Assembly: GCF_002854065.1 (NCBI RefSeq)
Contig: NZ_CP024147.1
Reading direction: 5' to 3' (one strand)
DNA: 64,000 bases
Source: Escherichia coli
Lineage (GTDB): Bacteria; Pseudomonadota; Gammaproteobacteria; Enterobacterales; Enterobacteriaceae
How positions within the stretch are numbered: the first letter of the stretch is position 1; each line of letters begins with the position of its first letter. Shown here piece by piece: positions 46,401 through 49,400 of the stretch. Position numbers: made by a program.

Positions 46401-49400
46401 TCCAGCATTGCCTGTGCGGCATTCCCGGTGCTGTATGAATCGGTTACTGATATATTTTCCTGCATAGATTTAACCGGCCATCTGAGATGGTCGACAGGTT
46501 AACATAATTACAGCCATTTAGGGCCACGCGCTCAGCCCGCGGGTGAAAACGCATCTATCACCTTGTGATCGACACCTTCATTCTCCCCCGCCAGTTCGGC
46601 ACTGAGCTTCGCCATAAACTCGACTAAAAAATGCGCGTTGTGCTGCGCCAGCTGCTTGCCTCTTACGGTTTGCATGGTTTGCGGTAGCTTCAGCAACTTA
46701 GTCTGGAAATGATCCAGCGCGTAACGTTTATCATCAAGCGGGCGATGCTGTGCGAGCGGATCTTCGGCATCAAACAGCGCCACGCCCAATGCCCCTGAAA
46801 CGGCAAACACACGTGCCAGGCCAATCGCCCCCAGGGCTTCCAGCCGATCCGCATCCTGGACAATTTTAGCTTCCGTGGTTAAGGGGGCGATTTGCGCGCT
46901 GAAACTGTGAGCGGCAATGGCATGACAAACGGCCTCAATTTTCTCCGCCGGAAATTGCACGAACTCTTCACGGAGCAGGCGACGCGTCTCTTCTGCCGCC
47001 AGGATTGAAGAACGCTGCCGTTGCGGATGATTTTTCGCCAGGCTCACAATATCGTGGAAATAACAGGCTGTTAAAATCACCAGCATATCGACATCGTCAT
47101 CTGCCGCCAGCTTCTGTGCCGTAGCCCAGACGCGGCGAAAATGACACACGTCATGAGCCGCGTCCTGGTGCTGATGATGGTTTTTCAACCAGTTTTCGAA
47201 CTGTGCCTGCCAGTGTTGTAAGTCCATACGCGCTCCGTTGCCAAAGAGTCGCCACCTTAGCAGTTTTTATTCATAGCGTCTGCTACGTGCGGGACGAGGT
47301 CGGGTGTACCAGGCAATGCTGCCTAACAATGCCCCGACCAGAGCCATAAATAAAAATCCGACCAGTGCCCCTAACCACTTTTCCGCGGTAGAGCCTAAAT
47401 CGCTTTCAAATCCCGACACGGGGGCATCGGGGATCCGGCTAATCACCCAGATGTAACGCGCCATTGCCCAGACGAAATAGCCACACCATGTATAGAAAGC
47501 CCACAAAGCCAGTTTGCCGCCAGGGCTGCGAGAGAGTCTCTCTTCCATCTTTGTCGAACCGTATTCCATTTTGAGATAACCCGGAAAATTCAGACTAAGC
47601 ACTATTATGTGATAAAAGTCACATTTTTCCACATTGAATGAGCCAGTCAAGACTCAATCATTTTTTGAACAAATAGATAAATTTTGCGCAACGGCAGTGA
47701 ATACAGGAAAAATCGTTTTGAGCGATTTTATTTATCTTTGATATCGGCTTTATTAATTCATTCAATCAATATATTAGCACTGATTACAATTATACCTTTT
47801 TATTATTCTGTGTCATGATGCCTCCGTTATTAGCCTTTTATCGTCTTGTTTATATTTTTTGGGCCGGCATGATGCCGGCTTTTTTTTATGCCTTCATTAA
47901 TGTGCGCGTGATCACACCAGCCGTTTAGCGCATCAATCATTGATACCCCCTATCTTTCCGCTCAACTCATAACATATTGATATGCATTTATAATTTTCAT
48001 GAATATTTATATTTAGAATTCATAATTATGAATTATATTAAATAGATTAGAAACATTTTGAAATCTTTTAAATATATTTGTTACATGTAGTCCTTAAAAT
48101 AAAATGAACTTCATAGAATAGTATCCAAATGTGCTTTTTTTTTGGATAACGGCACTTATTGATATATTCATGAAGATTATAATCACAAGGGAATACATAA
48201 TGAAAAGAAAAGTTCTGGCAATGCTGGTCCCGGCGTTATTAGTTGCTGGCGCAGCAAATGCGGCTGAAATTTATAATAAAGATGGCAATAAAGTTGATTT
48301 CTACGGCAAGATGGTTGGCGAACGCATCTGGTCAAATACTGATGATAATAACAGCGAAAACGAAGATACCTCCTATGCTCGTTTCGGTGTTAAAGGTGAA
48401 ACCCAAATCACCAGCGAACTGACTGGTTTTGGTCAGTTTGAATACAACCTCGACGCCAGCAAGCCCGAAGGTGAAAACCAAGAAAAAACCCGTTTAACCT
48501 TCGCCGGTTTGAAATATAACGAGTTAGGATCATTTGACTATGGCCGTAACTACGGTGTTGCTTATGATGCCGCAGCTTATACCGATATGTTAGTTGAATG
48601 GGGTGGCGATTCCTGGGCTTCCGCTGACAACTTCATGAATGGTCGTACCAACGGTGTTGCAACCTACCGTAACTATGATTTCTTTGGCCTGGTTGATGGT
48701 CTTGATTTTGCGATTCAGTACCAAGGCAAAAACAGCAACCGTAGCACTAAGAAACAAAATGGTGACGGCTATGCGTTGTCTGTAGACTATAACATCAATG
48801 GTTTTGGTATCGTTGGTGCATATAGCAAATCTGATCGTACTAATGAACAAGCTAGTGACGGCTACGGTGATAACGCTGAAGTGTGGTCATTAGCAGCCAA
48901 GTATGATGCAAATAATATCTATGCAGCAATGATGTACGGTGAAACCCGCAACATGACCGTTTTGGCTAATGATCATTTTGCAAATAAAACCCAAAACTTT
49001 GAAGCTGTTGTACAGTATCAGTTCGACTTCGGTTTACGTCCGTCTTTAGGCTACGTATATTCCAAAGGCAAAGATCTTTATGCTCGTGATGGACATAAAG
49101 GTGTTGATGCTGACCGCGTAAATTATATCGAAGTTGGTACCTGGTACTACTTCAATAAGAACATGAACGTCTACACAGCATACAAATTCAACATGCTGGA
49201 TAAAGATGACGCCGCCATTACTGGCGCAGCAGCTGATGACCAGTTTGCAGTTGGTATCGTCTACCAGTTCTAATCAGCCAACGCGCCGCGGCGTGTTACT
49301 GTAAAACTGAACACTAGCCTGAGTTCGTCCCTCATCGAACTCAGGCTTTTTTATTGGCATTTCATCTCCATCTGCGGCACACGCAATTGCCGAAGCATAT

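What the first reader, a model, noticed from the sequence alone, without database searches (positions are those of the whole stretch)
47780..47889. Orphan plus-strand terminator in the yedR-yedS intergenic region, candidate sRNA (possibly RseX)
A strong intrinsic terminator (GCCGGCAT/GATGCCGGC followed by T8) ends a plus-strand stretch with no protein-coding ORF. I recall the sRNA RseX mapping between yedR and yedS in K-12, but I cannot reproduce its sequence from memory, so the identity is an inference.
Basis: partly seen in the sequence, partly recalled or inferred. Interest (0 to 1): 0.4.

Follow-up and report, generated by a model that had tools for sequence, protein, structure and literature searches.

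The report
Known small RNA gene rseX

Summary
Window 47797..47887 (+) is rseX. It matches the whole Rfam RF01401 model at 99 bits (threshold 50). It aligns base for base with the curated K-12 gene b4603, with one substitution, U26C at 47822. It sits in the same slot, between drpB (formerly yedR, minus strand) and yedS (plus strand). The terminator is GCCGGCA/TGCCGGC with loop UGA and a T8 tract. Only three terminators this strong occur in the 64-kb window, against none in 30 shuffles. In K-12, RseX is an Hfq-dependent trans-acting sRNA. It represses ompA, ompC, fimB and ihfB by pairing at their translation start regions. It also represses fepA through its terminator loop. H-NS/StpA silence its transcription. 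Checks made here:
- rseX is present in 4879 of 5426 complete E. coli genomes, in other Escherichia species and in Citrobacter amalonaticus, with the same gene order.
- The pairing core (nt 29-49) and the terminator are conserved.
- The one substitution lies in a hypervariable loop and slightly strengthens predicted pairing to the ompA and ompC ribosome-binding sites.
- The neighbouring porin gene yedS is intact here and is not predicted to be a target.

This is already known and of low interest.

The parts
47797..47887 (+). rseX gene (91-nt sRNA RseX)
   Evidence: Rfam RF01401 at 99 bits, full model. Aligns 90/91 with K-12 b4603.
47785..47790 (+). -10-like hexamer TACAAT (5/6), at -12..-7 from the annotated 5' end
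   Evidence: Own hexamer scan. Identical in K-12. A sigma-70 promoter and a 5'-RACE end are reported for K-12 in PMC8313858, citing Douchin 2006 and Chen 2002.
47761..47766 (+). Weak -35 candidate TTCAAT (3/6, 18-bp spacer). Contains the window-specific C at 47763 (K-12 has T).
   Evidence: Too weak for the tool's promoter scan to list it.
47810..47834 (+). Weak 5' hairpin (nt 14-38), loop nt 25-28
   Evidence: Rfam consensus structure and MFE fold. No covariation support among 9 sequences.
47822..47822 (+). U26C substitution relative to K-12. It turns GCUUCC into GCCUCC (anti-Shine-Dalgarno-like) in the hairpin loop.
   Evidence: The surrounding 40-mer is exact in 243 of 4580 E. coli genomes. 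Loop nt 24-28 is hypervariable between species.
47825..47845 (+). Conserved core CG(U/A)UAUUAGCCUUUUAUCGUC (nt 29-49), the predicted pairing region for the ompA and ompC translation start regions
   Evidence: Near-invariant in 9 sequences from Escherichia and Citrobacter. Windowed duplex predictions place the ompA and ompC pairing in nt 24-51.
47861..47881 (+). Rho-independent terminator hairpin (core stem 47863..47879, loop UGA 47870..47872)
   Evidence: Identical to K-12. The stem-loop is invariant across Escherichia. The loop is needed for fepA repression in K-12 (PMC11979758).
47880..47887 (+). T8 tract (3' U-tail of the sRNA; such tails bind Hfq, from general knowledge of Hfq-dependent sRNAs)
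47267..47569 (-). drpB (formerly yedR), the divergent upstream neighbour
   Evidence: NCBIfam NF038392 at 150.7 bits. Annotation in K-12 and in strain CUWW06.
48200..49273 (+). yedS, an intact OmpC/OmpF-like porin gene, the downstream neighbour
   Evidence: NCBIfam porin models, E = 1e-128 to 1e-135. Annotated 'porin' in the 100%-identical strain CUWW06. It is a pseudogene in K-12.
47550..48300 (.). AT-rich island (27-34% G+C, flanks 52-55%) that contains rseX and the yedS promoter region
   Evidence: Fits the H-NS silencing reported for K-12 (PMC8313858).

Best explanation
Window 47797..47887 (+) is the rseX gene. It is transcribed as its own unit, starting 7 bp after a TACAAT -10 element and ending at the GCCGGCA-UGA-UGCCGGC/U8 intrinsic terminator. 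The product is a 91-nt Hfq-dependent trans-acting small RNA. In K-12 the RNA pairs imperfectly with the ribosome-binding regions of ompA and ompC, and also of fimB and ihfB, and blocks their translation. Separately, its 3' terminator module (nt 52-91) represses fepA; this requires the terminator loop, Hfq and RNase E. The gene sits in an AT-rich island that H-NS (backed up by StpA) keeps silent under laboratory conditions. What is shown here: identity, position, terminator, conservation, and complementarity to the ompA and ompC start regions. What is taken from K-12 literature: Hfq dependence, the target list, the terminator-loop role and H-NS silencing. What is inferred: that these hold in this strain, which differs at a single base of the RNA.
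For: - Family match: Rfam RF01401 full-length hit, 99 bits against a gathering score of 50.
- Annotation: the K-12 RefSeq record has rseX b4603 between drpB and yedS, and the window is 90/91 identical to it.
- Gene order: the neighbours are DrpB, YedJ, Dcm, HchA and a porin.
- Terminator strength: 3 stringent terminators in the window against 0 in 30 shuffles.
- Promoter: -10 TACAAT at -12..-7.
- Distribution: 4879 of 5426 complete E. coli genomes carry rseX, nearly all at 95% identity or more.
- Other species: Rfam-confirmed homologs occur in E. albertii, E. whittamii, two unnamed Escherichia species and Citrobacter amalonaticus. The Citrobacter locus keeps the order yedJ-drpB-rseX-porin.
- Conservation: core nt 29-49 and the terminator are conserved.
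- Predicted pairing: nt 24-51 pair with ompA -22..-3 at -19.3 kcal/mol and with ompC -27..-8 at -19.0 kcal/mol. Only 4 and 6 of 120 shuffled sRNAs do as well.
- Literature: PMC8313858 (H-NS repression, the ~91-nt transcript seen on Northern blots of a delta-hns strain, and repression of ompA, fimB and ihfB). [quoted passage not shown] PMC7648144 (91 nt; down-regulates OmpA and OmpC).
Against: - No expression data exist for this strain, and native RseX is undetectable in wild-type K-12 (PMC8313858).
- The -35 element is poor (3/6), and the generic promoter scan did not list a plus-strand promoter here.
- The whole-RNA fold is not more stable than shuffles (z = -1.13).
- The 5' hairpin has no covariation support.
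- The pairing energies come from a simple windowed duplex calculation without accessibility terms. For the K-12 allele they are only marginally better than shuffles (15 and 22 of 120).
Confidence: 0.95

Rival explanations
1. The terminator ends, or attenuates, a leader transcript of the downstream porin gene yedS. On this view the RNA is mainly a cis-acting 5' element of yedS rather than an independent trans-acting sRNA.
For: It is on the same strand as yedS and 312 nt upstream of its start. yedS is intact in this strain. In delta-hns RNA-seq, 'RseX and surrounding areas' rise together (PMC8313858).
Against: The terminator is very strong: 7 perfect pairs, up to 9 with G-U, then U8. Promoter-like sites lie between it and yedS, at 48012..48039 and 48078..48105. 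Trans effects on ompA, ompC, fimB, ihfB and fepA were shown in K-12, where yedS is a pseudogene (PMC8313858, PMC11979758).
Confidence: 0.05
2. The transcript encodes a small protein from the ATG at 47815 (a dual-function or protein-coding RNA).
For: An ATG-initiated 37-codon frame, 47815..47928. The first ~15 codons are similar in all Escherichia sequences compared.
Against: There is no Shine-Dalgarno sequence upstream. The frame has no stop before the transcript's 3' end. A 1-nt indel shifts the frame in four Escherichia lineages, and Citrobacter has ATT in place of ATG. Codons 2-4 vary at all three positions.
Confidence: 0.02
3. The locus is a conserved but functionally silent relic. It is kept off by H-NS and has no physiological role, and its reported activities are artefacts of overexpression.
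For: Native RseX is undetectable in wild-type K-12 (PMC8313858). rseX is missing from about 10% of E. coli genomes, was lost several times in E. coli and Shigella (PMC3318445), and is replaced by an IS3 element in strain S1-CAM-01-C.
Against: The gene is at least 95% identical in nearly all of the 4879 genomes that carry it, while the adjacent yedS falls into allele classes as low as 60-80% identity. The core and terminator are conserved as far out as Citrobacter.
Confidence: 0.1

Closest known systems
RseX of E. coli K-12 (b4603; Rfam RF01401)
   Same: Same locus (drpB-rseX-yedS) and same 91-nt length. 90 of 91 bases are identical, and the -10 element, core pairing region, terminator stem, loop and U-tail are all identical.
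   Different: One substitution, U26C, in the 5' hairpin loop, and one at -34 in the promoter region. The neighbouring yedS is intact and belongs to a very different allele class from the K-12 pseudogene.
MicF (next to ompC) and MicC (next to ompN): porin-repressing Hfq sRNAs encoded beside another porin gene (arrangement recalled from established knowledge; micF next to ompC is visible)
   Same: A small Hfq-dependent RNA encoded beside a porin gene represses other porins by pairing at their ribosome-binding sites.
   Different: The sequences are unrelated and belong to different Rfam families. micF and micC are divergent from their porin neighbours and respond to OmpR, MarA and other regulators. 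rseX is co-directional with yedS, and H-NS silencing is its only known control.
SdsR and ArrS 3' terminator modules (PMC11979758)
   Same: The loop of the intrinsic terminator is needed for Hfq- and RNase E-dependent repression of fepA through a structure far upstream in the fepA 5' UTR.
   Different: They are unrelated in sequence. RseX behaves differently on the compensatory stem mutant of fepA stem-loop II-b (PMC11979758).

Membership tests
RseX (Rfam RF01401) | Scores above the curated gathering threshold of the family's covariance model over its full length | tested here: met
   99 bits against 50, model positions 1-94 of 94, E = 1.9e-12. Reproduced at E = 3e-14 on the 1-kb region.
RseX (Rfam RF01401) | Orthologous position between drpB (yedR) and yedS, on the yedS strand | tested here: met
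   K-12 annotation, base-for-base alignment, and NCBIfam identification of DrpB and the porin.
RseX (Rfam RF01401) | Independent ~91-nt transcription unit: own sigma-70 promoter and Rho-independent terminator | tested here: inconclusive
   The terminator is clearly present. The -10 TACAAT is at the right distance, but the -35 is only 3/6. The promoter region matches K-12, where the 5' end was mapped (PMC8313858, citing Douchin 2006), except for one base. Transcription itself cannot be tested here.
RseX (Rfam RF01401) | Complementarity to the translation start regions of ompA and ompC | tested here: met
   nt 24-51 pair with ompA -22..-3 (-19.3 kcal/mol) and ompC -27..-8 (-19.0 kcal/mol). 4 of 120 and 6 of 120 shuffles do as well. 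This is a simple duplex model without accessibility terms.
RseX (Rfam RF01401) | Hfq binding and Hfq-dependent repression | not testable with these tools
   Only the sequence prerequisites are visible: a terminator hairpin with a U8 tail and U-rich internal stretches. Hfq dependence is reported for K-12 (PMC8313858, PMC11979758).
RseX (Rfam RF01401) | 3' module (nt 52-91) with the terminator loop that mediates fepA repression | tested here: met
   nt 52-91 are 100% identical to K-12. Function is shown only in K-12 (PMC11979758).
H-NS-silenced, AT-rich loci | Local A+T richness well above the flanks; H-NS occupancy | tested here: inconclusive
   G+C is 27-34% over 47550..48300 against 52-55% in the flanks. 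Occupancy and de-repression are known only for K-12 (PMC8313858).

The most novel reading that the evidence does not exclude
In strains like this one, where yedS is intact, rseX and yedS may form one H-NS-silenced 'porin-swap' module. When silencing is lifted, the alternative porin YedS would be made while RseX removes OmpC and OmpA, and RseX itself would spare yedS. The minority U26C allele creates a CCUCC anti-Shine-Dalgarno motif and could strengthen that repression. Calculations here are compatible with this: pairing to the yedS start region is weaker than for most shuffled controls (-9.6 kcal/mol; 114 of 120 shuffles do as well), and U26C improves predicted ompA and ompC pairing by about 2 kcal/mol. 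None of it is demonstrated.
Probability: 0.15. Interest if true: 0.35.

Novelty: already known. Interest (0 to 1): 0.08.

Why it matters
It matters little as a discovery. RseX has been known since 2002-2006 and is curated in Rfam and in the K-12 annotation. Three practical points follow. First, automatic RefSeq annotation of most E. coli genomes leaves this gene unmarked ('none' under the match), so a reader of raw sequence will keep rediscovering it as an orphan terminator. Second, strains like this one carry rseX next to an intact yedS, unlike K-12, which makes them better backgrounds for finding the native role of RseX. Third, the terminator loop, identical here, belongs to the recently described class of terminator loops with a regulatory role (PMC11979758).

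Tried and rejected
- Whole-length RNAduplex of RseX against 140-190-nt target 5' regions gave long, unrealistic AU-rich duplexes no better than shuffles. I replaced it with a 22-nt windowed search.
- The generic promoter scan listed no plus-strand promoter for rseX. A relaxed hexamer scan was needed.
- The genome contigs pattern TTAGCCTTTTATC-N15-35-CCGGCA returned 37 loci. All seven Escherichia and Citrobacter loci were confirmed as rseX by Rfam. Three of the other 30 were also tested and none was rseX (one carries a 6S RNA); the remaining 27 were not tested and are presumed chance matches.
- I tested whether the near-consensus minus-strand promoter at 47816..47789 is the drpB promoter. The literature maps that promoter next to the drpB coding sequence instead (PMC7648144).
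- Covariation support for the 5' hairpin was sought and not found: 1 compensatory pair in all, and that one lies in the terminator.
- The original paper (Douchin et al. 2006, JBC) and Warner et al. 2013 on YedS are not held in the library. Their content is cited only through later papers.
- A low-threshold Rfam search of 47400..48400 found nothing else credible. RyhB, Esr41, STnc430 and suhB scored far below their thresholds and overlap the terminator.

Full report
**Observation.** The sequence at 47861..47887 reads GGGCCGGCA-TGA-TGCCGGCTT followed by more Ts. The perfect 7-bp stem is GCCGGCA/TGCCGGC (47863..47869 and 47873..47879) with loop TGA, and G-U pairs extend it to 9 pairs. The T8 run lies at 47880..47887. 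A stringent scan of the whole 64-kb window on both strands required at least 7 perfect pairs, at least 5 G-C pairs, a loop of 3-8, and at least 7 T in the next 8 bases. It found three sites: this one, the DsrA terminator, and one near 13806 (-). It found none in 30 dinucleotide-preserving shuffles. The terminator really is orphan. The upstream genes vsr, dcm, yedJ and drpB are all on the minus strand, and on the minus strand the hairpin has no T-tract after it. Two mechanical ORFs overlap the region (44 aa, 47684..47818; 37 aa, 47815..47928). The 37-aa frame has no Shine-Dalgarno sequence and runs beyond the terminator. A 1-nt indel shifts its frame in four other Escherichia lineages, and Citrobacter lacks the ATG.

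**Identity.** A scan of the window against all Rfam families gives a full-length hit to RF01401 (rseX, Hfq-binding RNA) at 47797..47886 (+). The score is 99 bits against a gathering score of 50, E = 1.9e-12, and a focused search reproduces it. The RefSeq record of E. coli K-12 MG1655 annotates ncRNA rseX (b4603) at 2033649..2033739 (+), between drpB (b1963, formerly yedR, minus strand) and the yedS pseudogene (b4496, plus strand). Alignment puts the K-12 gene on window 47797..47887 with 90 of 91 identical bases. The one difference is C instead of T at 47822, nt 26 of the RNA. NCBIfam identifies the flanking proteins as Dcm, YedJ and DrpB/YedR upstream, and an OmpC/OmpF-like porin and HchA downstream. 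The intergenic region is 100% identical to E. coli strain CUWW06, whose annotation gives the same gene order but leaves rseX unmarked.

**Anatomy.**
- Promoter. The annotated 5' end (47797) lies 7 bp after a TACAAT hexamer (47785..47790; 5 of 6). The best -35 candidate is poor (TTCAAT, 47761..47766; 3 of 6; 18-bp spacer), which is why the generic scan did not list it. This stretch is identical to K-12 except for C/T at 47763 (-34). According to PMC8313858, a sigma-70 promoter was predicted there and the 5' end was mapped by RACE in K-12 (citing Chen 2002 and Douchin 2006).
- Fold. The RNA forms a weak 5' hairpin (nt 14-38) and the terminator (nt 65-85). The overall fold is not more stable than shuffles (z = -1.13).
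- Conservation. I aligned nine sequences: the window, K-12, two further E. coli, E. albertii, E. whittamii, two unnamed Escherichia species and Citrobacter amalonaticus. The blocks CUGUGUCAU and CG(U/A)UAUUAGCCUUUUAUCGUC (nt 29-49) are essentially invariant. The terminator stem-loop CCGGCAUGAUGCCGG is invariant within Escherichia. The hairpin loop (nt 24-28) differs in almost every lineage. The window's U26C change lies in that hypervariable patch.
- Covariation. Pair counting shows 92.5% of cells paired but only one compensatory pair, at the base of the terminator. Comparative data therefore support the terminator but neither support nor contradict the 5' hairpin.

**Mechanism.** The mechanism comes from work on K-12.
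- RseX was isolated as a multicopy suppressor of the lethality of an rseP deletion. It acts by Hfq-dependent post-transcriptional repression of ompA and ompC (PMC8313858 and PMC7648144, summarising Douchin 2006).
- It also binds and represses fimB and ihfB at their ribosome-binding and start-codon regions (PMC8313858).
- It represses fepA by a second route. The 3' part alone (RseX+52, nt 52-91) represses 23-fold. This needs the exposed bases of the terminator loop, a stem-loop far upstream in the fepA 5' UTR, Hfq and RNase E, and apparently does not involve direct pairing (PMC11979758).
- Native RseX is undetectable in wild-type cells. It appears as a ~91-nt band, with a ~75-nt form, when hns is deleted, and more so in an hns stpA double mutant (PMC8313858).

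My own checks fit this picture.
- A 22-nt windowed duplex search places the best pairing of the window's RseX in nt 24-51. It pairs with ompA -22..-3 at -19.3 kcal/mol and with ompC -27..-8 at -19.0 kcal/mol. Both sites cover the Shine-Dalgarno sequences. Only 4 and 6 of 120 shuffled sRNAs do as well.
- The K-12 allele scores about 2 kcal/mol weaker (-17.5 and -16.4; 15 and 22 of 120 shuffles do as well). The U26C change, which creates CCUCC, is thus predicted to add pairing to GAGG. This is only a thermodynamic estimate without accessibility terms.
- nt 52-91, including the terminator loop, are identical to K-12, so the fepA-related module is unchanged.
- rseX lies in an AT-rich island (27-34% G+C over 47550..48300, against 52-55% in the flanks), as expected for an H-NS target.

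**Distribution.** The 91-nt gene is present in 4879 of 5426 complete E. coli genomes, nearly all at 95% identity or more. 240 are essentially identical to this allele, and the 40-mer around nt 26 is exact in 243 of 4580. About 10% of genomes lack the gene, in line with the reported repeated loss in E. coli and Shigella (PMC3318445). In one such strain an IS3 element replaces both rseX and yedS. A pattern scan of one genome per species, followed by Rfam confirmation, finds rseX in E. albertii, E. whittamii, two unnamed Escherichia species and Citrobacter amalonaticus (70.9 bits). The Citrobacter locus keeps the order yedJ-drpB-rseX-porin.

**Rivals.**
- A cis-acting leader or attenuator of yedS is not excluded as an extra role. 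The strength of the terminator, the promoter-like sites between it and yedS, and the trans activities shown in a strain where yedS is a pseudogene all make it unlikely.
- A small-protein reading is rejected on conservation grounds.
- A 'silent relic' reading has some support from the lack of native expression and from gene loss. Against it, rseX is tightly conserved while the neighbouring yedS has diverged into allele classes of 60-80% identity.

**Verdict.** This is the known sRNA gene rseX: already known, ordinary, low interest. The only points beyond the textbook are a minority single-base allele in a hypervariable loop, and the fact that this strain, unlike K-12, has an intact and strongly diverged yedS porin gene next to it. 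RseX is not predicted to target that gene (-9.6 kcal/mol; 114 of 120 shuffles do as well). That leaves room for an untested 'porin-swap module' idea.

Noticed in passing
window 48200..49273 (+): yedS is an intact 357-aa OmpC/OmpF-like porin gene here, whereas K-12 has a pseudogene. The flanks are about 100% identical to K-12, but the coding region is only about 70% identical and has several indels. Across 5426 E. coli genomes this allele is at 95% identity or more in 844, at 90-95% in 1309, and at 60-80% in 2604. These are deep allele classes, sitting beside a highly conserved rseX.
   Followed up: partly
window 47816..47789 (minus strand): A near-consensus sigma-70-type promoter, ATGACA-16-TATAAT (11 of 12), lies on the strand opposite rseX and overlaps its +1..+20 and its -10 element. 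Both hexamers sit in blocks conserved across Escherichia. It is not the mapped drpB promoter, which lies next to the drpB coding sequence (PMC7648144). It could be a divergent or interfering promoter, or a spurious site in H-NS-silenced AT-rich DNA.
   Followed up: partly
window 39373..39459 (-): The DsrA sRNA gene (Rfam RF00014, 102.5 bits) lies 8.3 kb from rseX. DsrA down-regulates hns, and H-NS silences rseX (PMC8313858), so the two nearby sRNA genes may be linked in regulation.
   Followed up: no
window ~13806 (minus strand): The third strong intrinsic terminator in the window (CCCCGCC / GGCGGGG, loop of 3, then TTTTTTCTG), found in the stringent scan. I did not check which gene it ends.
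   Followed up: no
window 3691..3989 (-), 57500..57586 (-), 58578..58650 (+): Five tRNA genes: a cluster of three at the window start, one long-arm tRNA, and one further tRNA.
   Followed up: no
L042 5001..6300 (E. coli S1-CAM-01-C): In this strain an IS3-family transposase sits between drpB and hchA, and both rseX and yedS are gone. This is one example of how the ~10% of E. coli genomes without rseX can arise.
   Followed up: partly
window 47797..47887, and the matches: RefSeq/PGAP annotation lists no feature under rseX in every non-K-12 genome sampled. Only the curated K-12 record names it.
   Followed up: no
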